DNA from: a virus
Taxonomy: Duplodnaviria; Caudoviricetes
IMG/VR virus record: IMGVR_UViG_3300042885_001472
Direction: 5' to 3' (one strand)
DNA: 64,000 nucleotides
The translations under genes were made by a program, and so were the position numbers. The notes under the pieces were generated by a model. It did no database searches and was not told the DNA's origin. It saw only the letters and a list, made by a program, of their open reading frames with translations. Positions 3,257 to 59,177 of this stretch are shown here, piece by piece. Numbering within the stretch: position 1 is the stretch's first letter; the number at the start of each line of letters is the position of its first letter.

Positions 3257-3463
3257 ATGAAAGACATTAAAGAAATGGAAGTAGAAGAACTTCGCAAAGA
3301 AATGGACGAACTTTGGGGATATTTATATATGACAAGAGAAGTCGGTGCTTATGATAAATTTGAGTGGAACGGATTAGATTATTGGGATGCTGATAGAAGA
3401 CATCACAAAGTATCACAAGAAGTTCTTCTACGGAGTATATTAGAACTCACTGATAAAAAATAA
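3257..3463 (+). CDS. hypothetical cassette protein
   Basis: ATG 3257 (MKDIKE), inside unit 3212-3476. Confidence 0.7.
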   Translation: MKDIKEMEVEELRKEMDELWGYLYMTREVGAYDKFEWNGLDYWDADRRHHKVSQEVLLRSILELTDKK

Positions 3464-3537
3464 TATTACCTATAACGATTTGCGTATATACGCAGTGCTA
3501 ACGAAAATTTAATTTGAAATACAAAATTTAATAATAT

Positions 3538-3729
3538 ATGAAAACTTTAATTGGAAAAATGAAAGCATTGCGTATATACGCTGTTATAAGCAGTGCTTTT
3601 AAACACGATTGTTGGATGAACAAGAAAATGGTATCAGCTTCTTATTTCAAAGATGGTGATAGCAGTGTAATATTTTCAACTGGTAAAAAATATTGTTGTG
3701 AAAAATGTGGGAATCAGTGGTCTGAATAG
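3538..3729 (+). CDS. small Cys-containing cassette protein; starts inside a hairpin loop
   Basis: HDC...CCEKCG. ATG lies in the loop of hairpin 3473-3586. Confidence 0.7.
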   Translation: MKTLIGKMKALRIYAVISSAFKHDCWMNKKMVSASYFKDGDSSVIFSTGKKYCCEKCGNQWSE

Positions 3730-3833
3730 CATTGCTTATAACGTTTTGCAGCTAATAAATCGGCTTGCTGTTTATTAGGTGCGGTTATAGGTATGTGTTT
3801 TTTGCGTAGGAATTAACAACTAAAATTATAAAT

Positions 3834-4314: not shown

Positions 4315-4430
4315 TTGCTACTAACGGTTGAGGCTATGAGTAGTTGCCTTGTAAATACTGCTCAATTAACCACAAACGCTGATAGGCAATTGCTTATAGC
4401 CTTTGTTATAGGTTGTAAAATTTATGGATT

Positions 4431-4673
4431 ATGAAAGTAACAGATTTTATTGGAGTGAAAGCTAAATACGATGAAGATGGACAATTTATTTGGGGAATTG
4501 AAAAGGATGGTGGACATCAAAAACTTGCTGATTTAAGAGGTTGGGGAGCAATTCAAAACTTATTCATCAATAAGGATAAAACTATTGATTTAGATGCAGC
4601 AGCAAGTTTTCAAGATGAATTTGGCAGATGGATTGTCGAGGCTATAAACGAGAAATTGGAATGGGAACGGTAG
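4431..4673 (+). CDS. hypothetical cassette protein
   Basis: Sole ORF of unit 4405-4693. Confidence 0.75.
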   Translation: MKVTDFIGVKAKYDEDGQFIWGIEKDGGHQKLADLRGWGAIQNLFINKDKTIDLDAAASFQDEFGRWIVEAINEKLEWER

Positions 4674-7025: not shown

Positions 7026-7835
7026 ATGGTAAATAAAAAATTCATTAATGGTCAAGAAGATTCAATTTCAAATTACCTTAAGGATGTAAAAAAGTGTGGT
7101 GTTATTAACACTGACACTGAAGTTGAATTAGCTAAAAGAATACAAGAAGGTGATCAAGTTGCCGCTGATGAATTGGCTAAAGCTAATCTTAGATTTGTTA
7201 TATCAATCGCCAAAGAATATCAAAATCAGGGATTACCATTAGCGGATTTAATTTCAGAAGGTAATTACGGATTGATTATAGCGGCTCAACGATTTGACTA
7301 TACAAAAGGGTTTAAATTTATTTCTTACGCTGTATGGTGGATAAAACAATCTATTATGCAGTCACTAAACGAACATTCCAGAACTGTTCGGTTACCAACT
7401 AATGTTATCAATAAACTTTCTAAAATTAAGAAAGAGATAGATGCGTTTGAGCAAAAGTTTGAAAGAAAACCAGTATTAGGTGATGAAATTGAAATGGTAT
7501 TCCACCCAACAGTGATATCGTTAAGTACAACAATAAATGATGATGGTGATGAGTTAATTGAAGTTATTGAAGATCCTAACATTAATAGTCCGGACAATGA
7601 TCCATATAATGAGTACGACATTAAAGAACGTATGAATAAAATTCTATCAATTCTTTCTGAAAGGGAGAAAAATGTGATTGAGTTATATTATGGTATAAAT
7701 GGATCACCTTTAACATTGGAAGAAATTGGTGAGGAATATGATTTAACTAAAGAAAGAATTCGTCAAATTAAAGAAAAATGTATCAGAAAACTTAGAAATA
7801 ATGCTGATGTCTTACAACAACAATTATTTGGATAA
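7026..7835 (+). CDS. RNA polymerase sigma-70 family factor (RpoD/RpoS-like)
   Basis: Region 2 ANLRFVISIAKEY, DLISEGN, FISYAVWWIKQ; region 4 HTH TLEEIG..LTKERIRQI. Confidence 0.95.
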   Translation: MVNKKFINGQEDSISNYLKDVKKCGVINTDTEVELAKRIQEGDQVAADELAKANLRFVISIAKEYQNQGLPLADLISEGNYGLIIAAQRFDYTKGFKFISYAVWWIKQSIMQSLNEHSRTVRLPTNVINKLSKIKKEIDAFEQKFERKPVLGDEIEMVFHPTVISLSTTINDDGDELIEVIEDPNINSPDNDPYNEYDIKERMNKILSILSEREKNVIELYYGINGSPLTLEEIGEEYDLTKERIRQIKEKCIRKLRNNADVLQQQLFG

Positions 7836-7980
7836 ATATGAATAAATTTAATGAGTGGTGGAACGAAGTTTTATTCGTTATTAATATTAGTATCTTTGAA
7901 ATATCTGTTGATAATGGAATGATTTGTTCATTGATATTGATAATTTTTGGATTAATGAGTTTATAAATAAAACAAATAAT

Positions 7981-8160
7981 ATGAAAAAAGACATTGAAAT
8001 TAGTGTAACTGAAACAAAATCAGTTGAACATGTTAGTTATGAAGAGTTGTATAACTCATTAAGAGATAGAATTAGATTAATTCAACAACTTAATGATAAA
8101 TACGAAAATGATGAAGATTTTGGTAGAAATTTAAGAAAATTATTGAATTTAGGTGGGTAA
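7981..8160 (+). CDS. hypothetical protein
   Basis: ATG 7981 (MKKDIE) preferred over the track start. Confidence 0.6.
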   Translation: MKKDIEISVTETKSVEHVSYEELYNSLRDRIRLIQQLNDKYENDEDFGRNLRKLLNLGG

Positions 8161-8665: not shown

Positions 8666-8965
8666 ATGAAAACTAAACAAGAAATAGAAAAGTTAGCTGA
8701 GCAATATTTACAAAAAAATAAACATAATTTTGATACTTGGAAAGAGATAGAACATGTTAAAATTAGTTATATAGATGCTTACACTCAATGCCAAGAAGAT
8801 GTAGATTGGGAATTATTAGTGAAGTTGATTAAAAGGTATACAGAAGAAGATTTACTTCACGCTTTTAGAGAAGGAGTTTTATTACCTAACTCACAAATTG
8901 GTATAATGGAAGATATATTTAAACAAGTAGTTCAATCACTAAACAAACAAGACAATGAAAACTAA
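8666..8965 (+). CDS. MKTKEEIEQLAE-family paralog 1
   Basis: Shared modules MKTK.EIE.LAE, YTQCQED and SLNKQD. Confidence 0.75.
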   Translation: MKTKQEIEKLAEQYLQKNKHNFDTWKEIEHVKISYIDAYTQCQEDVDWELLVKLIKRYTEEDLLHAFREGVLLPNSQIGIMEDIFKQVVQSLNKQDNEN

Positions 8966-9221
8966 AGAAGAAATAGAACAGTTAGCTGAAGAATTTGGGG
9001 ATAAATATGCTGATAACGGAAATCATAAATATGGTTTTATCAAAGGCTACACTCAATGCCAAGAAGATATGGCTGATAAGAAATCCACAGAGGAAGATAT
9101 TAGAAAGGCTATTGAAGTTGGTGTAAATGCAGAAGCCGGTGATTATCCAAAAGGTTTTACACACAAACTTGGAATTAGCTTAGAAGATTATTTTATTAAC
9201 TCACTAAACAAAAAAGACTAA
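8955..9221 (+). CDS. MKTKEEIEQLAE-family paralog 2
   Basis: Same shared modules. Confidence 0.75.
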   Translation: MKTKEEIEQLAEEFGDKYADNGNHKYGFIKGYTQCQEDMADKKSTEEDIRKAIEVGVNAEAGDYPKGFTHKLGISLEDYFINSLNKKD

Positions 9222-9222
9222 T

Positions 9223-9510
9223 ATGAAAAGCAAAGAAGAAATAGAACAGTTAGCTGAAAATCAATATCCAATTGAAGTAGGAGGTTCGATGTGGATGCCT
9301 AATACTAATGATATTAAAAAGGCTAATGAACAAGAAGGTTACATAAAAGGTTACATTCAATGCCAACAAGATATGGCTGATAAGAAATATACAAAGGCAC
9401 AAATTATATGGGTAATACAAGAAGCATACGGACACGGTAGAGATAGTGAAGACACTATTGAAGAAAGTATTGATTATATTTTTAACTCACTAAACAAACA
9501 AGACTTATGA
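9223..9510 (+). CDS. MKTKEEIEQLAE-family paralog 3
   Basis: Same shared modules. Confidence 0.75.
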   Translation: MKSKEEIEQLAENQYPIEVGGSMWMPNTNDIKKANEQEGYIKGYIQCQQDMADKKYTKAQIIWVIQEAYGHGRDSEDTIEESIDYIFNSLNKQDL

Positions 9511-13896: not shown

Positions 13897-14160
13897 ATGA
13901 AAACGAGAACATCATTAAACCACAGAACCTTTGCTTTTGCTTATGTGCTGTTAGTAGCTGTTATTTTTTGCGGCTGTGAGGATATGAATAGAGCCGAAGA
14001 ACGCTCAAAAGTATTTAAAACAGCAGTAGAAGTTAATGGCTACCAAATATCAATAATAGAATTTGATAGTTGTCAATACTTAATATCAGGCGTTGGCTAC
14101 TCACAAATGATGACACATAAAGGGAACTGTAAATTTTGTACAGAACGTAGCAAAAAATAA
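13897..14160 (+). CDS. putative lipoprotein, cassette family A copy 2
   Basis: LLVAVIFCGC, HKGNCKFCTERSKK; ATG in the loop of hairpin 13828-13953. Confidence 0.7.
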   Translation: MKTRTSLNHRTFAFAYVLLVAVIFCGCEDMNRAEERSKVFKTAVEVNGYQISIIEFDSCQYLISGVGYSQMMTHKGNCKFCTERSKK

Positions 14161-14290
14161 TTGCTACTAACGTTTTGCAGCTAATAGACGGGCTGGAAAC
14201 TTATATAATTCCGCCTGTTTATTAGGTGCTGTTATAGGTAGTGCCAAATATAAATACTAAAAGAATATTAATAATTAAAAAATAGAAATA

Positions 14291-14632: not shown

Positions 14633-14794
14633 GCATTACCTATAACGGTTTGCAGCTTTGAGCCGTTTAAACGAATATTAATTTAAAACTAAAACAACGA
14701 ATATGAATAACAATGAAATAGAAAATGGCGCAAAGGTGATGTTGGTACCAGTAGCCAAATTAAAATTTAAAAACAATAACTTAAAAATACAATT

Positions 14795-15055
14795 ATGAAA
14801 AACAACAAAGAAAAATCGTACCAATACGCATCGATGATACAAGAGGCAATAGCTGAATTGATTTCAGAACACGAATTATTAGCTGATTTTGATGATGAAA
14901 ATAACGCAACTGCATTTTTACACGCATTAGCTAATGTAGTGCCATGTAATATTTATAAGAAATTAACTAATGATAATACTGATATTTTAGGTTTTAATCA
15001 TATTGCTAATAGATTAGTATATCAATTTACAAAGCAGGACGAAGCCGAAGCGTAA
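14795..15055 (+). CDS. hypothetical cassette protein
   Basis: Unit 14741-15079. Confidence 0.7.
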   Translation: MKNNKEKSYQYASMIQEAIAELISEHELLADFDDENNATAFLHALANVVPCNIYKKLTNDNTDILGFNHIANRLVYQFTKQDEAEA

Positions 15056-15199
15056 ACGCCAAGGGCTATTGGTACTAACGGTCGGCAATATGAAACGGTT
15101 GCCCTTGTAAGACGTTTCAAAATATGATGCAGTTTTCTGGCAACTGTTTTATATTGCTTGTTATAGCCAGTTAATTTTAATCAATAAAAACGAAAAAAG

Positions 15200-30847: not shown

Positions 30848-31192
30848 ATGAATAAAATGGATAGTAAATTATATGCGAGACATGGAGATGTTTTCATATT
30901 TAAATTAAAAAAAAGTGTACAAAGTAATAATTTTAAAAAACAAGATGAACTTATCTTGGCCTTGGGAGAAGTTACCGGACATTCACATAGAGTAAAATCT
31001 AAAGAACAAGGTGATATCTTATTATTTGAAGATGATTCAAAAATTAATGATTCAACATTATTTGAAATCATTAATGAAAGTGTCTTAACACATGAAGAAC
31101 ACGAACCTATTACATTGTCACCAGGACAATACCTTTCAATAATTCAAACGGAGTATGATCCAATTGAACACAGACGTAAAGTTATAGATTAA
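30848..31192 (+). CDS. His-rich small beta-fold protein (typical partner of DUF6745-like genes)
   Basis: RHGDV, GEVTGHSH, HEEH..ITL.PG.Y. Confidence 0.6.
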   Translation: MNKMDSKLYARHGDVFIFKLKKSVQSNNFKKQDELILALGEVTGHSHRVKSKEQGDILLFEDDSKINDSTLFEIINESVLTHEEHEPITLSPGQYLSIIQTEYDPIEHRRKVID

Positions 31193-31193
31193 A

Positions 31194-31727
31194 ATGAAAT
31201 TAAAAGAGTTATTAGATACAATCACATTTAATGATGGGAATTATACATTGTATGGTGAAAAAGAATTATTAGAATATAAAGAAAAATTATTATTGTGTGA
31301 TGAGTTTAGTGAAGTTGAAGAACTACATTTTATCTCTACACCAGTCGCTATCGTTAATGAAAAAGTATTAAGTAGTGAAACTTTAATGGTTGGTGATGAA
31401 ACTAAAATAAAAGGTAAATGTTATCTTTTATCAACGATGTATACTCCAGAAATGTTTGACCCTAGTACATTCAATAAACCGGTTAAAGATGGGGCTGCGA
31501 TTACACCGATAGTATATAATCCAATATCATTTGAACCAAAAAGAAATATTCTATTATCATTCTCACCGGAACGAAAACAAGTGTTCCCACCATCAGAAGT
31601 TAATGATGAAGAACTATTAAGAAAAGAATTACACGATTTATTAGATAAAGTTTTAGATTCACCTAATGAATATAAGATTAAAGGCACTAGAGGTGTGATG
31701 ATAAGAGGTGTATTTGAAAATAAGTAA
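31194..31727 (+). CDS. hypothetical protein
   Basis: 177-aa ORF. Confidence 0.75.
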   Translation: MKLKELLDTITFNDGNYTLYGEKELLEYKEKLLLCDEFSEVEELHFISTPVAIVNEKVLSSETLMVGDETKIKGKCYLLSTMYTPEMFDPSTFNKPVKDGAAITPIVYNPISFEPKRNILLSFSPERKQVFPPSEVNDEELLRKELHDLLDKVLDSPNEYKIKGTRGVMIRGVFENK

Positions 31728-38752: not shown

Positions 38753-39547
38753 TTATTTTATTTCATTTTCCCAATCAGGGTTATAATCTTTCCAATTCTT
38801 ATATTCAAAAAATTCATTAATACCTAAAAGTCTATGATTAACACCATCAATATTTGATGTCCAACTATCGTGGAAATGACCAAAAAAATGGTAATCAGGT
38901 TTATTCTTCTCTAATAATATATTCCACATTTTAGTAACCTCTTCCCTTTCATTCCTTAAATCGGTCTTAAGTTTACTATCATCCTGGGCGAATTGTTCTA
39001 CTAAATAACCAAAACCAGTTTTATTTACCGGATGACAAAAGTCCATTGTTGTGTGGGTAACTAAAATATCAATACCTTCAATAGATTTAAGTTTTTCTTC
39101 ATTTAATACAAAACCTTCATCATACCAATGTAATTTTCTATCTAAGTTACTTTTGGCGTACATAAGTTCTTCTCTCATACGAGGTCTACGATCAACACTT
39201 ACCGCACCACCAATACCCAGTATTTTTACACCATCAACATCAATTACACTGTAATCTGGTAATAAATGTAAATTATCAAAATGATTTTCCAAATGACCAT
39301 CAAAAAAGTCTGGATCATCATGATTCCCTCTCCATACCATCATATTAATGTTATGTTCCTTTAGAAAGTTATTTAAAAGACCTAAATTGGTCATATCATT
39401 AAATTTTTCTATAAAACCAACACCAAAGTCACCAACTTGACATATAGTACAATCACTTATTTTATATGTGGTTATATACCATTTAAGGTGGTTAAAGTTA
39501 CCGTGAATATCTCCGACAAAAATGAGGGGTTTTTTTAATCTTTCCAT
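38753..39547 (-). CDS. calcineurin-like metallophosphoesterase
   Basis: GDIHG, GDFG, GNHD, GHFH. Confidence 0.9.
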   Translation of the reverse strand: MERLKKPLIFVGDIHGNFNHLKWYITTYKISDCTICQVGDFGVGFIEKFNDMTNLGLLNNFLKEHNINMMVWRGNHDDPDFFDGHLENHFDNLHLLPDYSVIDVDGVKILGIGGAVSVDRRPRMREELMYAKSNLDRKLHWYDEGFVLNEEKLKSIEGIDILVTHTTMDFCHPVNKTGFGYLVEQFAQDDSKLKTDLRNEREEVTKMWNILLEKNKPDYHFFGHFHDSWTSNIDGVNHRLLGINEFFEYKNWKDYNPDWENEIK

Positions 39548-49707: not shown

Positions 49708-49780
49708 TGTCTTTATTTTTCTAAATTTTATTATTATATTACAACTATAATCATAAAATAAATTAATATCAATAGAAACT

Positions 49781-50002
49781 ATGTTTTTTAATCGTTTAAA
49801 TCAGAAAATTATACTTTGTAACGAGAAATTTGAAATTATTAAGGATAATGTCAAACTTAAACACATACCCAGGGAAGGTGAGTATGTATTTTTTGGTGAT
49901 GAAAGGGTATATTGGCTAGTTTATAAGATTATTTACAATATTTCATCCACTAATATTATTTGGGTTGTTGTAATTCCTACTGAACAAAATCAAAATGGTT
50001 AA
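49781..50002 (+). CDS. hypothetical protein
   Basis: 73-aa ORF. Confidence 0.6.
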   Translation: MFFNRLNQKIILCNEKFEIIKDNVKLKHIPREGEYVFFGDERVYWLVYKIIYNISSTNIIWVVVIPTEQNQNG

Positions 50003-50013
50003 TATTTATTATT

Positions 50014-51075
50014 ATGAAATTTATAAATATTTTAAAAGAAGATGATAATACCAATCAATGGACTAAAGAACAAATTGGTATTGTTAAATTAATAATCAAA
50101 AAGGGTTATAGTGATACTGAATATACTAACATAATTAACTACTTAGTTAGTATTGGTTTTGATAAAGAAGAGGCTATTGATGGATATTATTTATTTAAAA
50201 ATAATGTTGATGATGAAGGTAATTTTGATGTTACAACAGAACCTGATACGGATAAACATTGGGAAGATTTTTCCAATGAAGTATTAGCTTTAGCTATTCA
50301 TTTAGAAATTGATCCTAGTGAAATTGAAGAGGAACACTATAATCACTATGGTTTAACATATTATAATACATCTGAAGGTGAGTATGCGGTAGGTACTGAG
50401 TCTGAAGCTGAAGATGCTGCGGAACAAGCTGCTGAGAATTTAGTTGATGAGGGTATAGTTAACTCAGATTTTATTAAAGATTATATTACAATGACAGATA
50501 CTGATAGACATCTTTATGCTCAGGAGGACGCTGATAATCGAGTTGACGATATGAGTGATGATGATATTATTGAAGAAAAAGATCTTGAAGATGAAATATC
50601 TATGATTGATGCGGAGGAAAGTGATAATAATGATAGAATAAGTGAATTGGAATCTGAAGTGGAAGAACTTGAAGATGAGTTAAGAGAATTAGAAGAAGAT
50701 GAGGAGCTTGAAAGACAAGAAGAAATCAAGGATGAATTATTAACTCTTAATTCTCAAATACGGGAATTAGAAGGTATTGATTATGACGGTAAAAAGGAAG
50801 ATATTATAAGTGTTGCGAGAGAAGAAATAAGAGAAGAATATTATGATAGTATGTATAGTGAATTAGAAGACCCAGTTGAATACTTTGTAGATACCCATGG
50901 TTTTTATACACTTGAAGAGTTAATTAAAAATGGACCTATTTACATTGACAATCAAAAATTGATTAAAGATATCGTTAGTGAAGATGGTAGAGGATCACTT
51001 TTATCTGGTTATGATGGCGAAGAGAATGAACAAGATTATGACAATGAAACGTATTATATTTATAGAGTAAACTAA
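50014..51075 (+). CDS. highly acidic protein with tag-like N-terminus
   Basis: MKFINILKE; D/E-rich coiled coil. Confidence 0.75.
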   Translation: MKFINILKEDDNTNQWTKEQIGIVKLIIKKGYSDTEYTNIINYLVSIGFDKEEAIDGYYLFKNNVDDEGNFDVTTEPDTDKHWEDFSNEVLALAIHLEIDPSEIEEEHYNHYGLTYYNTSEGEYAVGTESEAEDAAEQAAENLVDEGIVNSDFIKDYITMTDTDRHLYAQEDADNRVDDMSDDDIIEEKDLEDEISMIDAEESDNNDRISELESEVEELEDELRELEEDEELERQEEIKDELLTLNSQIRELEGIDYDGKKEDIISVAREEIREEYYDSMYSELEDPVEYFVDTHGFYTLEELIKNGPIYIDNQKLIKDIVSEDGRGSLLSGYDGEENEQDYDNETYYIYRVN

Positions 51076-55817: not shown

Positions 55818-56384
55818 TTATAGTACCTGATCAATGGGTTGAGTTCTCTTTTCAATTTGTTCTAAATTAAGTGATAATGGTGTATTACGATCAAAAACCT
55901 TAACAATAACGTCAACACTATTTTTTGAATGGTCAATTTTATCAATAAACCCATTAAATCCTTTAAAAGGTCCATCAGTAACAACAATACTCTCACCCAC
56001 GATTAGTAAGTTAACTGTTTCTTGACTCCCTTCAATATTACCAATAATACTATTTAATTCACTTTTTCTTAGGGGTAGTAATTTCTTATCCCCAGACTTA
56101 AGAAACCCAGATACGTATTTAACCATTTCAATTTCTTTAACCACATCCGGATTGGGTGAATCAGTTTTAAATTCAACCAACATATAACCTGGTAAAAGAT
56201 TTTTGGTCATTACGATTTTCTTACTATCCTTTATTTTAACCACTTTTTCTTGTGGGACTAAAACTTGACTAACGTATTTGTCAAAACCTTCAACCATTGT
56301 GATATGTTCTTTTATTTTATTCTCTTTAGCGTTGGCCACTCTTAGAGTGTACCAATTAGTTTTTTCATTTGAAATTGTACTCAT
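55818..56384 (-). CDS. nusG: transcription elongation/antitermination factor NusG
   Basis: WY.LRV, LLPGYMLVE, KOW domain V.DGPFKGFNG, VKVFDRNTP. Confidence 0.9.
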   Translation of the reverse strand: MSTISNEKTNWYTLRVANAKENKIKEHITMVEGFDKYVSQVLVPQEKVVKIKDSKKIVMTKNLLPGYMLVEFKTDSPNPDVVKEIEMVKYVSGFLKSGDKKLLPLRKSELNSIIGNIEGSQETVNLLIVGESIVVTDGPFKGFNGFIDKIDHSKNSVDVIVKVFDRNTPLSLNLEQIEKRTQPIDQVL

Positions 56385-56943: not shown

Positions 56944-57360
56944 AATATTTATGTATGTTGAGTACAAATGTAATGATTATTTTTAATAAAACAAATTTAT
57001 TTTTTAAAAAACAAGTAGTAGAAACTTAGAACCCCACCTTTTGGGGGTTACAGAGAACAGATATTTCTACCCCTAAGTTAATTTTATGTCTTGAAAACTA
57101 CTACTTGTTATTAAATCTACTTACAACTACCTCTACCATATTTCTATGAGTCACTGTCCTGATTGTAAGTTGTAGTCTTTAGAACTACTAGATTTAATGT
57201 GTTTACCTGTCACTCCAAGTGTGTGAATAATCTGTTATTACCATAATAGGGCCAGTCATTATCTATCCACAAACAACTCCCTCTTGGTGTGGGATATACA
57301 TCTTATATCTATCACTAGACAAATTCCACTGTATTTGTTTGCTTTTAGCGGGTAAATATT

Positions 57361-57503
57361 TGTGAGTACAAGTTATCTCCTCTTACTATGGGATACAAAT
57401 TATAGTGCTTGCGAGACCTTGTATCCTCTTACTCGGTAGTATAGTCAATCAGAGACCCCAGCTAGGATGTTTAGAGTCCAGCGGTGGCTTTACCTTGTAC
57501 TCA
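57361..57503 (-). ncRNA. unknown structured RNA, copy 1
   Basis: Three blocks identical to 58318-58483; closing stem TGAGTACAAG/CTTGTACTCA. Confidence 0.7.
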
Positions 57504-57506
57504 ATG

Positions 57507-57575
57507 TAGTCATAGCAGGACTTGAACCTGCATCATCCTAACCCAAGTTAGGGTTCTACATTGAGCTATATGACT
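57507..57575 (-). tRNA. tRNA-like element with 6-nt anticodon loop (Pro/Gln-like pseudo-tRNA)
   Basis: AGTCATA/TATGACT acceptor, GCAGG-TTCAAGT-CCTGC T arm, CCTAA-CTTGGG-TTAGG. Confidence 0.65.
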
Positions 57576-57605
57576 GTTTGCCTGTCTTTCCAGGCTGTCT
57601 GACTA

Positions 57606-57854
57606 CTATGCTATACCGTCATTCCATTTACCTTTATATAGTACTCCATCTACTCTGTCGTTAGCGCTATCATATGCAAACATGATATCAAAGTCCTTGC
57701 GATACCCAAGTGATATTAACTCTACGTAATCGTAGGCTTTTGCATCTATATATGCAGTACACCAGTGACCACAGGACATGAGGCTATGTGTAAACTTTAT
57801 CTTTTTAATCTTATGTTTTTTTGTGGATGTTTCCAATACTATTGTCTTTGTCAT
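57606..57854 (-). CDS. hypothetical protein
   Basis: ATG 57854 (MTKTIVLE); the GL-repeat extension in the track is a by-product of the repeat. Confidence 0.6.
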   Translation of the reverse strand: MTKTIVLETSTKKHKIKKIKFTHSLMSCGHWCTAYIDAKAYDYVELISLGYRKDFDIMFAYDSANDRVDGVLYKGKWNDGIA

Positions 57855-57882
57855 ATGTCCTTTGTTTTTAGTTGTTAATAAT

Positions 57883-58206
57883 TTATACAGACCAAGACCT
57901 AAACCCAGACCCAGACCAAGACTCAGACCAAGACCTAGACCAAGACCCAGACTCAGACCAAGACATAGACTCAGACCAAGACATAGATCCAGACCAAGAC
58001 CTAGACCTAGACCCAGACCTAGACCAAGACACAGAACAAGACCAAGACCAAGACCTAGACTCAGACCAAGACCTAGACCCAGACCAAGACCAAGACCTAG
58101 ACCCATACCCAGACCTAGACCAAGACTCAGACCAAGACCTAGACCAAGACCCAGACCTAGACCAAGACTCAGACCTAGATCTTTTTTGTTTTTTTCCTCT
58201 TATCAT
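57883..58206 (-). CDS. Ser-X dipeptide repeat protein (SR/SW/SG/SE)
   Basis: ATG after an A-rich leader; reads a 6-bp repeat. Confidence 0.55.
   Translation of the reverse strand: MIRGKKQKRSRSESWSRSGSWSRSWSESWSRSGYGSRSWSWSGSRSWSESRSWSWSCSVSWSRSGSRSRSWSGSMSWSESMSWSESGSWSRSWSESWSGSGFRSWSV
57888..58180. repeat. degenerate hexamer tandem repeat (AGACCN)n
   Basis: About 49 units. Confidence 0.95.
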
Positions 58207-58317
58207 TTCTATTTATTTTAAATTGTTAATGTGTTGAGGATGAGAAGTCCTTTGTGTTGTCTATTACTGCTGCGTCCCTAGGGAACCATTCCTTTCTCAA
58301 GGGAACAACACAATTTT

Positions 58318-58483
58318 GTGAGTACAAGTTATCTCCTCTTACTATTTAACAGTAGGTGGCTTCCTACATCTATTAACTCAGTTTTATTTCTTTGTGTTAA
58401 TAGTCAATCAGAGACCCCAGCTAGAGTTTATATAATTAAATAATCACCTAATTACACTCAGCGGTGGCTTTACCTTGTACTCA
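58318..58483 (-). ncRNA. unknown structured RNA, copy 2
   Basis: Same three conserved blocks as copy 1, with different inserts. Confidence 0.7.
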
Positions 58484-58567
58484 GTATTTTTAATTTCAAA
58501 GAACTAATTTTTTATAACATTAATTGTTTAACAAAAGTAAGTATTTTTTTTAAATATAACAAGTGTT

Positions 58568-58798
58568 TTATTTATAAATTTCAACAAACTTTGAATTAAC
58601 TGAATCATACTCTTCTTGTGTCATAGATATCCAAGCACTATAATCAAAAGTTGATGATTTAAAGGTATCAACTATCTGTCTCCCTTCAGTTTCATCTAAT
58701 AACACTAAGTTATCTTTCCACCTATAACTTTGTTGTAGAAACAATCTTTTGTTAGTTTTATGTTTCCAAACTTTTAAACCATGTTCATTTAGTTCCAT
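58568..58798 (-). CDS. hypothetical protein
   Basis: 76-aa ORF. Confidence 0.65.
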   Translation of the reverse strand: MELNEHGLKVWKHKTNKRLFLQQSYRWKDNLVLLDETEGRQIVDTFKSSTFDYSAWISMTQEEYDSVNSKFVEIYK

Positions 58799-59067: not shown

Positions 59068-59081
59068 ATTCTTTTTTTTTG

Positions 59082-59177
59082 TTGTTAGGACAAGATTCGA
59101 ACTTGTATAAGTGAACTAATCGTTTCTTAACCATCACATTCATTAGTGATGTACATATACCACTCTGTCACCTAACA
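59082..59177 (-). tRNA. class II (Leu-like) tRNA-like element with expanded anticodon loop
   Basis: TGTTAGG/CCTAACA acceptor, ACAAG-TTCGAAT-CTTGT T arm, CATCA-CTAATGAATG-TGATG, long variable arm. Confidence 0.6.

What the first reader, a model, noticed from the sequence alone, without database searches (positions are those of the whole stretch)
57361..58483. Duplicated unknown three-way-junction RNA
Seen (minus strand): TGAGTACAAGGTAAAGCCACCGCTG-[var1]-CTAGCTGGGGTCTCTGATTGACTAT-[var2]-ATAGTAAGAGGAGATAACTTGTACTCACA in two copies, with identical 25/25/29-nt blocks and unrelated inserts. Predicted pairings: P1 TGAGTACAAG/CTTGTACTCA, a GCTG/CTAGC-based arm, and TCTC/GAGA plus ACTAT/ATAGT around a TGATTG/AAGAG internal loop. 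Copy 1 begins 3 nt after the 3' end of a tRNA-like element. I cannot match it to a family I know. It could be a ribozyme, a processing element or a protein-binding scaffold.
Basis: partly seen in the sequence, partly recalled or inferred. Interest (0 to 1): 0.75.

Follow-up and report, generated by a model that had tools for sequence, protein, structure and literature searches.

The report
Uncatalogued folded RNA behind phage tRNA-like genes
A giant lake-water phage carries two copies of a 140-170-base folded RNA with an almost invariant core; otherwise unrelated phages carry the same RNA, usually 3 bases behind a tRNA-shaped gene, it matches no described RNA family, and its job is unknown.

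Summary
Two minus-strand copies (58483-58317 and 57503-57361) share three identical blocks of 25, 25 and 29 nt, separated by two differing inserts.

I found five more copies: two complete uncultured phage genomes (87 and 74 kb), two freshwater metagenome contigs, and a close relative of the window phage. The phages share almost no genes, yet the 79 block nucleotides differ at no more than 2 positions outside helix P1.

The three-way-junction fold is supported. 96.8% of pair cells are paired, against 36-45% when partners are slid. Eight pairs change on both sides, in P1 and the distal P3 stem. G-U pairs, and co-orientation with flanking genes in all seven copies, point to RNA rather than DNA.

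No Rfam family matches, even at E<=10. It is not a theta/HDV-like or hammerhead ribozyme, a phi29-type pRNA, or one of this phage's integron-like hairpins.

Five of seven copies start 3 nt (CAT or CAA) after the discriminator base of a tRNA-shaped element. Four of those elements cannot decode; some belong to a widespread phage "tRNA chassis" family.

Best reading (about 40%): a small RNA cut free by tRNA-processing enzymes that then acts through a conserved partner. A ribozyme, a cis-regulator or a DNA-level element remain possible. No expression data exist.

The parts
58317..58483 (-). Motif copy A (167 nt): P1, J1/2 GUAAA, P2 with a 34-nt AU-rich extension, P3 with internal loop and 54-nt distal part, J3/1 AUAA, P1 3' strand, tail CA
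   Evidence: MFE -45.0 kcal/mol, z = -3.9; model R1, 121.8 bits, E 5e-30
57361..57503 (-). Motif copy B (143 nt). P1 5' strand 57503-57494; J1/2 57493-57489; P2 57488-57455; P3 57454-57377; J3/1 57376-57373; P1 3' strand 57372-57363
   Evidence: 151.1 bits, E 9e-38
57507..57575 (-). tRNA-shaped element directly upstream of copy B: intact acceptor, D and T arms, 6-nt 'anticodon' loop CUUGGG; probable processing handle
   Evidence: Homologues with the same 6-nt loop are in L236 (CUCGGG) and L241 (UUUGGA)
57504..57506 (-). 3-nt spacer CAT between discriminator A57507 and P1; same length in 5 of 7 copies (CAT x4, CAA x1)
   Evidence: In the tRNA-chassis family the trailer nearly always starts with C
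58252..58313 (-). Long hairpin immediately after copy A (10-bp closing stem, no U-run); conserved in relative L236
57004..57109 (-). Large terminator-like structure about 250 nt after copy B: 12-bp closing stem followed by U6; probable end of the transcription unit
   Evidence: fold -29.1 kcal/mol; sequence
58532..58539 (-). TACTTTTG box (Bacteroidota -7 type, TAnnTTTG) 56 nt upstream of copy A; possible promoter of a unit holding both copies. Weak evidence: the box is not enriched genome-wide

Best explanation
The motif is a self-contained structured non-coding RNA module of about 140-170 nt. It is a three-way junction with a 79-nt near-invariant core, encoded by large freshwater phages of Bacteroidota (Flavobacterium type). 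It is transcribed on the gene strand as part of a longer transcript. Where it sits 3 nt behind a tRNA-shaped element, the host's tRNA 3'-end endonuclease (RNase Z type) would cut after the discriminator base and release the motif RNA with a defined 5' end (5'-CAU-UGAG...). The tRNA-shaped elements would then be processing handles rather than decoders. The freed RNA would act through its invariant core on a conserved partner, either a protein or a host RNA machine. Shown: the module exists, its sequence is conserved across phages that share almost no genes, the fold has comparative support, its strand is fixed, and it abuts tRNA-shaped elements. Inferred and untested: transcription, cutting by tRNA-processing enzymes, stability, and action in trans.
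For: Seven copies: two in the window, plus L001/G001, L089/G002, L223, L224 and L236. Similarity between contigs stops at the motif borders. The window shares no tblastx hit at E<1e-8 with G001 or G002 and only two phmmer-detectable protein families, one small family with both genomes and a ferritin-like protein with G001. Fold: 96.8% of cells paired against 36-45% when partners are slid; 8 pairs changed on both sides; 0 of 500 shuffles reach the observed score. Invariant G-U pairs in P2 and P3a, and a U-G intermediate in P1 of L223, would be C-A mismatches on the other strand. All seven copies point the same way as the flanking genes and tRNAs. Five of seven copies lie 3 nt after the discriminator base of a tRNA-shaped element. 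Four of those elements cannot decode: a 6-nt loop, a 3-bp stub or a long hairpin replaces the anticodon arm. Their acceptor/T-arm half, which from textbook knowledge is what RNase P and RNase Z read, is conserved as an exact 24-mer in at least 120 viral contigs, while the middle is hypervariable. Insert lengths are not multiples of 3 and no reading frame is shared, so the motif is not coding.
Against: There is no transcript evidence. Two copies (window A, L001) have no tRNA-shaped element in front, so tRNA-linked processing cannot be the only way to make the 5' end. The core helices never vary, so the fold of the core rests on thermodynamic prediction and on compatibility only. The seven copies amount to about three independent lineages. 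No candidate partner protein is established: one small protein family of unknown function is shared by all three genomes, but nothing ties it to RNA.
Confidence: 0.4

Rival explanations
1. It is a self-cleaving ribozyme of a new class. It trims the 3' trailer of the tRNA-shaped RNA upstream, or frees itself, in the manner proposed for the HDV-like theta ribozymes next to phage tRNAs.
For: Fixed 3-nt distance from the tRNA(-like) 3' end in 5 of 7 copies. About 79 near-invariant nucleotides, including helices, as in compact catalytic cores. Precedent: theta ribozymes lie within +/-5 nt of phage tRNA 3' ends (PMC10879173).
Against: No known ribozyme family scores even at E<=10. [quoted passage not shown] Two copies have no tRNA upstream. 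Most of the upstream elements are not real tRNAs that would need maturing. Catalysis cannot be predicted from sequence.
Confidence: 0.13
2. It is a cis-acting regulatory RNA within the transcript. One version is a processive antitermination element like HK022 put or Bacillus EAR, letting polymerase read through the hairpin-plus-U-run structures downstream. Another is a translational or stability element that uses its Shine-Dalgarno-like AAGAGGAG.
For: Long hairpins with U-runs follow copy B, L089 and L001. A possible promoter box lies 56 nt before copy A. A NusG-like antiterminator gene lies downstream on the same strand at 55818-56384. Two copies in one phage recalls putL/putR (own knowledge). 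In L223 an ORF starts 33 nt after the motif.
Against: The downstream context is inconsistent: terminator-like in three copies, a plain hairpin in two (window A, L236), an ORF directly in one, and a 210-nt noncoding stretch before an ORF in one. No alternative pairing links P1 to a terminator. The NusG-like protein is absent from G001 and G002. These phages' genes have A-rich leaders without Shine-Dalgarno sequences. No Rfam riboswitch or EAR match.
Confidence: 0.15
3. It is a DNA-level element: a miniature inverted-repeat transposon, or a recombination site or cargo of the integron-like cassette system of these phages. On this reading the fold matters as single-stranded DNA or not at all.
For: Homology between unrelated phages begins and ends exactly at the motif borders. 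There are 10-bp terminal inverted repeats beginning TG and ending CA. A TAAC sits at the junction with P1. Earlier notes describe this gene pool as exchanging cassettes at TAAC/GTTA hairpins (e1-5340589), and such hairpins are present in the window.
Against: The window's cassette hairpins are simple YTAACGRT...TGTTATA hairpins, whereas the motif has no GTTA partner and is branched. No cassette hairpin flanks any copy. There are no target-site duplications. The terminal repeats covary instead of being conserved. G-U pairs are strand-specific. All seven copies are co-oriented with transcription.
Confidence: 0.08
4. It is a recently spread, functionless duplicate, and the conservation only reflects recent exchange.
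For: Four copies (L001, L089, L223, L224) are 96-99% identical over the whole motif. G001 and G002 also share another 99%-identical 132-codon segment, so recent exchange does occur in this gene pool.
Against: Between the window copies and the L001 group the inserts have diverged heavily (indels, unrelated loops, three compensated pairs) while the 79 block nucleotides stay the same. That is purifying selection, not recency.
Confidence: 0.03

Closest known systems
Theta ribozymes (minimal HDV-like ribozymes next to phage tRNAs; Kienbeck et al. 2024, PMC10879173)
   Same: A structured RNA placed within a few nucleotides of the 3' end of phage tRNA genes, on the same strand.
   Different: Theta ribozymes are nested double pseudoknots of about 50-60 nt whose P1 starts at the cleavage site. 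Here a 10-bp P1 pairs the two ends of a 140-170-nt three-way junction. No HDV-type Rfam model matches. The neighbouring elements are mostly non-decoding tRNA look-alikes.
tRNA-punctuated small RNAs: phage T4 stable RNAs C and D in its tRNA cluster, MHV68 tRNA-miRNA (TMER) transcripts, MALAT1-mascRNA (from my own knowledge, not checked in papers here)
   Same: A non-tRNA RNA abuts a tRNA or tRNA-like structure, so RNase P or RNase Z cutting defines its end. In TMERs the tRNA-like part is also non-functional in decoding.
   Different: No sequence or fold relationship. Processing is not shown here. Two of seven copies lack the tRNA-like neighbour.
Phage 'tRNA chassis' RNAs with swappable inserts
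   Same: Same phage gene pool. Members of that family sit directly in front of the motif in L224 and L236 (a diverged relative in L223). Both have conserved frames with exchangeable inserts.
   Different: In the chassis family the variable part replaces the anticodon arm. This motif is a separate domain 3' of the chassis, it is not tRNA-shaped, and it was absent from 120 chassis-bearing loci.
HK022 putL/putR and Bacillus EAR (cis-acting processive antitermination RNAs)
   Same: Two copies in one phage, on the gene strand, upstream of terminator-like structures, with a NusG-like gene nearby.
   Different: put is two stem-loops of about 70 nt placed just after early promoters. There is no sequence or Rfam match, and the downstream context is inconsistent among copies.
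phi29-type packaging RNA (pRNA)
   Same: A phage RNA of about 120-170 nt built on a three-way junction with a closing helix formed by the two ends.
   Different: pRNA belongs to phi29-like phages of about 20 kb and multimerises through complementary loops. Here loop complementarity is no better than chance and there is no Rfam match.

Membership tests
Theta / HDV-like ribozymes | Nested double pseudoknot: P1 starts at the cleavage site at the 5' edge and pairs with an internal strand; P2 closes to the 3' end; catalytic C in J4/2 | tested here: not met
   The first 10 nt pair with the last 10 nt before the tail (P1, covarying). Only 3 nt separate it from the tRNA, so there is no room for an HDV P1. 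No HDV-type Rfam model hits at E<=10.
Hammerhead ribozyme | Three helices around the core CUGANGA ... GAAA ... cleavage-site NUH | tested here: not met
   The junction strands are GUAAA, none, and AUAA. The only CUGA lies in an internal loop as CUGAUUGA (one base too many) and is not followed by GAAA after the next helix. No Rfam hit.
Twister, twister-sister, pistol, hatchet, hairpin and other catalogued self-cleaving ribozymes | Match to the family covariance model | tested here: not met
   cmscan of 57250-58600 against all 4227 Rfam 15 families at E<=10 lists none of them. The same holds for the relatives at E<=0.1.
Known riboswitch classes | Match to an aptamer model, and an expression platform that competes with P1 | tested here: not met
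   No Rfam match. Downstream hairpins lie 0-250 nt away and do not overlap P1; in L223 there is none.
Integron-like attC-type hairpins of these phages | Simple imperfect hairpin bounded by TAAC ... GTTA, between cassettes | tested here: not met
   The window's own sites read YTAACGRT...TGTTATA. The motif has one TAAC, no GTTA and a branched fold, and no such hairpins flank any copy.
MITE / small DNA transposon | Conserved terminal inverted repeats, target-site duplication, either orientation | tested here: not met
   The terminal repeats covary, there is no duplication of flanking bases, and 7 of 7 copies are co-oriented with genes.
phi29-type pRNA | Complementary loops for ring formation; covariance-model match | tested here: not met
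   Best complementarity between the two inserts was reached or exceeded in 158-500 of 500 shuffles. No Rfam hit.
tRNA-punctuated small RNA (a functional class, not a sequence family) | Abuts a tRNA or tRNA-like structure on the same strand | tested here: met
   5 of 7 copies lie 3 nt after the discriminator base.
tRNA-punctuated small RNA (a functional class, not a sequence family) | Ends made by RNase P or RNase Z; stable product | not testable with these tools
   No RNA run holds the locus.
Processive antitermination RNA (put / EAR type) | Cis-acting element that makes polymerase read through downstream terminators | not testable with these tools
   The context is only partly fitting. There is no Rfam match.

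The most novel reading that the evidence does not exclude
The motif is a new class of functional RNA core, either a self-cleaving ribozyme or a specific ligand- or protein-binding fold. Unrelated lake phages pass it around as a plug-in module and wire it to non-decoding tRNA-shaped handles for processing. It would then be part of a phage toolkit of modular, tRNA-punctuated RNAs.
Probability: 0.15. Interest if true: 0.8.

Novelty: new member of a known kind. Interest (0 to 1): 0.5.

Why it matters
Structured RNAs clustered with phage tRNA genes have been known since phage T4, but few have a known job. This one is unusually well defined. Its 79 nucleotides are essentially frozen across phages that share almost no genes. 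Its borders are sharp and its fold is simple. It is also physically coupled to tRNA look-alikes that cannot decode. That makes it a tractable test case for the idea that phages use tRNA shapes as processing handles for other RNAs. It is also a reasonable candidate for a new catalytic or binding RNA. If it proves to be only a stable by-product, it is an ordinary new RNA family of narrow distribution.

Tried and rejected
- Rfam at gathering thresholds (window) and at E<=10 (region) or E<=0.1 (relatives): only tRNA and tmRNA.
- blastn against 50,697 cultured-phage records: no match.
- No whole genome is held for the window.
- Exact 14-16-mers in IMG/VR: about 220 loci, all chance matches except L001 and L089.
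- Gapped two-block patterns: IMG/VR gave only L001 and L089; GTDB genomes gave one chance hit in a coding region (L220); JGI metagenomes gave L223 and L224 plus two chance hits.
- Model R1: no further copy in the window with filters off, one each in G001 and G002, and none in 120 tRNA-chassis loci totalling 1.06 Mb.
- Synteny route through homologues of the ORF at 57606-57854: one new copy (L236); the other relatives carry tRNA-like elements but no motif.
- Sequencing runs: no RNA holder listed. Contigs of four lake metagenomes laid on the region showed no variation in the motif and were swamped by the hexamer repeat.
- NusG-like protein as a universal partner: not found in G001 or G002.
- Kissing loops between the two inserts: not above chance.
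- A mimic of block 3 inside insert 2 (GUAAG(A)GGAGAU), which could pair with block 2 as an alternative: present in copy B and the L001 group but absent from copy A, so not a defining feature.
- Resemblance of block 2 to the tmRNA 5' region: not borne out by the phage's own tmRNA.
- TAnnTTTG promoter boxes: not enriched genome-wide.
- attC-like or cassette reading: rejected.
- Literature searches for a described tRNA-adjacent RNA of this kind: only the theta ribozymes.

Full report
**What is there.** On the minus strand the window holds two copies of one element, copy A at 58483-58317 (167 nt) and copy B at 57503-57361 (143 nt). Each consists of three blocks that are identical between the copies: 25 nt (TGAGTACAAGGTAAAGCCACCGCTG), 25 nt (CTAGCTGGGGTCTCTGATTGACTAT) and 29 nt (ATAGTAAGAGGAGATAACTTGTACTCACA). 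Two inserts separate the blocks, of 34 and 54 nt in copy A and 13 and 51 nt in copy B. Blocks 2 and 3 occur nowhere else in the 64 kb even with three mismatches, and shuffled sequence gives no matches. Copy B starts 3 nt (CAT) after the discriminator base of a tRNA-like element at 57507-57575.

**Relatives.** Pattern scans and a synteny search found five more copies.
- L001, from a complete 87-kb viral genome (G001).
- L089, from a 74-kb viral genome that is 97% complete (G002).
- L223 and L224, from JGI freshwater metagenome contigs.
- L236, from a close relative of the window phage.

A covariance model built from six copies (R1) finds exactly one copy in each of G001 and G002 and no more in the window. 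DNA and translated similarity between these contigs begins and ends at the motif borders. The window shares no tblastx hit at E<1e-8 with G001 or G002. Only two protein families are detectable by phmmer: one small family shared with both genomes and a ferritin-like protein shared with G001. Outside helix P1, however, the 79 block nucleotides differ at no more than two positions, both in L089. Public runs that hold the locus are lake and freshwater metagenomes. Earlier notes of this scan describe the genome as a giant Flavobacterium-type phage.

**Fold.**
- P1 is a 10-bp helix pairing the two ends.
- J1/2 is GUAAA.
- P2 has five lower pairs with a bulged A and a bulged U, then five or more upper pairs, then the first insert.
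- P3 follows P2 directly. It has 4 bp (P3a), an internal loop GAUUG/AAGA, 5 bp (P3b), an asymmetric loop, then an 8-bp distal stem (P3c) inside the second insert.
- J3/1 is AUAA.

On the six-sequence alignment 96.8% of pair cells are standard pairs, against 36-45% when the 3' partners are slid by 1-3 columns. Eight pairs change on both sides, and none of 500 shuffles reaches the observed covariation score.

The two-sided changes lie in P1 and in P3c. In P1, U-A becomes C-G with a U-G intermediate in L223, G-C becomes U-A, and U-A becomes A-U. In P3c, GGAUACAA/UUGUAUCC in copy B corresponds to AGAUAUGA/UCAUAUCU in the relatives. The upper end of P2 is extended by different complementary sequences in copy A, in L223 and in the rest.

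Lower P2, P3a and P3b never vary. This neither proves nor disproves them, but it shows they are constrained at the sequence level. If they evolved like P1 and P3c, zero changes in 19 pairs would be very unlikely. Single-sequence folds recover P1 and P2 in all copies and P3 in some.

**RNA or DNA.**
- Three invariant G-U pairs and the U-G intermediate in P1 would be C-A mismatches on the opposite strand.
- All seven copies point the same way as the flanking genes and tRNAs.
- Insert lengths are not multiples of three and no reading frame is shared.
- There are no target-site duplications.
- The terminal inverted repeat covaries instead of being conserved.

The earlier notes on integron-like cassette arrays in this genome made me test whether the motif is one of those recombination hairpins. 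It is not. The window's sites are simple hairpins of the form YTAACGRT...TGTTATA. The motif has a lone TAAC, no GTTA and a branched fold, and no such hairpins flank any copy. I therefore read it as an RNA.

**Known families.**
- Rfam 15 gives nothing at gathering thresholds, nothing at E<=10 on the region, and nothing at E<=0.1 on the relatives.
- The theta ribozymes are the one described class of structured RNA abutting phage tRNAs (PMC10879173). They are minimal HDV-like double pseudoknots, and the closing P1 here excludes that topology.
- The hammerhead core is absent.
- The loop complementarity that phi29-type pRNAs need is at chance level.
- Literature searches found no description of such an element.
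- The scan's own index holds no look-alike sequence.

**Context.** Five of seven copies start exactly 3 nt (CAT four times, CAA once) after the discriminator A of a tRNA-shaped element. Only L089's is a normal tRNA (tRNA-Gln, 61 bits). The others cannot decode.
- The element before copy B has a 6-nt loop. This feature is conserved in its homologues in L236 and L241, so it is not decay.
- L224's element has a 3-bp stub in place of the anticodon arm.
- L236's has a 16-bp hairpin there.
- L223's is barely tRNA-like (28.9 bits).

The L224 and L236 elements belong to a large family. Its T-arm plus acceptor 3' strand is an exact 24-mer found in at least 120 IMG/VR contigs, up to six times in 5 kb. 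Acceptor 5' strand and D-arm are also conserved, but the middle is hypervariable: 117 versions among 153 instances, with total lengths of 54-147 nt. ARAGORN calls only 31 of 143, with scattered isotypes. Earlier notes of the scan describe the same "tRNA chassis with swappable inserts". In this family the base after the discriminator is nearly always C, so the CAT spacer is the family's normal trailer.

In L236 the two kinds of tRNA-like element and the motif are arranged differently from the window. The 6-nt-loop element is not followed by the motif there, whereas a chassis element precedes the copy-A-type motif. The modules therefore shuffle. Copy A in the window and L001 have no tRNA-like element in front. 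Copy A has a TACTTTTG box 56 nt upstream. TAAATTTG and TACATTTG boxes follow the strong terminator-like structure 250 nt after copy B. This would place both copies in one transcription unit, but such boxes are not enriched in this AT-rich genome.

Downstream contexts differ among copies.
- Long hairpins with U-runs follow copy B, L089 and L001.
- A plain hairpin follows copy A and L236.
- An ORF starts 33 nt after the motif in L223.
- About 210 nt of noncoding sequence precede the next ORF in L224.

**Interpretation.** RNase P and RNase Z recognise the acceptor/T-arm half of tRNAs (textbook knowledge). That half is exactly what is conserved in the non-decoding elements. I therefore think it most likely (about 40%) that these elements are processing handles, and that the motif is released as a small RNA with a 5' end set by cutting after the discriminator base. 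This is the principle of T4 stable RNAs, herpesvirus TMERs and MALAT1-mascRNA (own knowledge). The frozen core would then serve to bind a conserved partner.

The rivals are as follows.
- A new self-cleaving ribozyme (13%): proximity to tRNA ends and an invariant core speak for it, but there is no known catalytic core and two copies lack a tRNA.
- A cis-regulator such as an antitermination element (15%): terminators and a NusG-like gene at 55818-56384 lie nearby, but that gene is absent from G001 and G002 and the contexts are inconsistent.
- A DNA-level mobile or recombination element (8%).
- A functionless recent duplicate (3%): the contrast between diverged inserts and frozen blocks contradicts this.

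The rest of the probability goes to functions I have not thought of.

**Limits.**
- There is no expression evidence: no RNA run holds the locus, and the laid metagenome contigs were uninformative.
- The seven copies represent about three independent lineages.
- The collection scans need exact words, so diverged members may exist unseen.

**Verdict.** This is a real, selected RNA family that matches no catalogued family and has a narrow known distribution. Its coupling to tRNA-shaped handles is clear, but its function is unproven. It is of moderate interest as it stands, and of high interest if catalysis or a specific partner is shown.

Noticed in passing
L224:7206-7274(-), L236:2170-2274(+), L241:2515-2603(+); IMG/VR loci L244-L363: A family of tRNA-shaped RNAs. 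Acceptor stem, class-II-type D-arm and T-arm are conserved: the exact 24-mer CAGGTTCGAATCCTGTCCTGACTA occurs in at least 120 viral contigs, up to 6 copies in 5 kb. The middle is hypervariable, with 117 versions among 153 instances and total lengths of 54-147 nt. Only 31 of 143 are called as tRNAs, with scattered isotypes. The scan has noted this family before in other phages.
   Followed up: partly
window 57507-57575(-); L236:2016-2085; L241:2677-2748; G001 4380-4453(-): A second tRNA-like family (acceptor AGTCATA/TATGACT) with a conserved 6-nt 'anticodon' loop: CUUGGG, CUCGGG and UUUGGA. G001 has another tRNA-like gene with a 6-nt loop (UAUUAA). The short loop is kept across relatives, so it looks selected rather than decayed.
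   Followed up: partly
window 59081-59177(-); G002 38851-38925(-): tRNA-like genes with 8-nt anticodon loops (ARAGORN 'atga' and 'ataa'). The one in the window has a long variable arm. Function unknown.
   Followed up: no
window 57890-58180: About 48 copies of a hexamer (GGTCTN on the minus strand) between the two motif copies. It can be read as a 107-codon Ser-X repeat ORF (57883-58206, minus strand). It is much shorter in relative L236, and it attracts thousands of unrelated metagenome contigs when reads are laid, so it may be a simple repeat rather than a gene.
   Followed up: partly
window 8666-9510(+); G001 3336-3593(-); G002 49755-50048(-): The only protein family shared by the window, G001 and G002: small proteins starting MKSKEEIEQLAE with a GYTQCQEDM motif. 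There are three tandem paralogues in the window. In G002 the gene lies about 500 nt upstream of tRNA-Gln plus the motif. No Pfam or PHROG function.
   Followed up: partly
L236:2925-3178 and L241:3260-3560: A conserved GC-rich noncoding block of about 250 nt with G and C runs (GAGGGGGGTATCC ... GGGGATCCCCC). In two relatives it follows the homologue of the ORF at 57606-57854, at the place where the window has the tRNA-like element and copy B. It is very unlike the surrounding AT-rich DNA.
   Followed up: no
window 55818-56384(-): A phage-encoded NusG/KOW protein (Pfam NusG, E 2e-16; PHROG 'transcription antiterminator'), downstream of the RNA cluster on the same strand.
   Followed up: partly
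G001 31088-31483 and G002 7739-8134: A 132-codon segment 99% identical between two phages that are otherwise only distantly related. This is evidence of recent module exchange in this gene pool.
   Followed up: no
window 3739-3787, 14160-14242, 14734-14798, 15045-15085 against L089:7858-8871: Short intergenic stretches 83-98% identical between the window and G002. They coincide with the TAAC/GTTA cassette hairpins described in earlier notes.
   Followed up: partly
window 57295-57360(-) and L224:6994-7061(-): About 65 nt downstream of copy B are also similar to the sequence downstream of the L224 copy (shared ACAGTGGAATTTG...ATAAGATGTATA). This may be a further small conserved element or only shared ancestry.
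   Followed up: no
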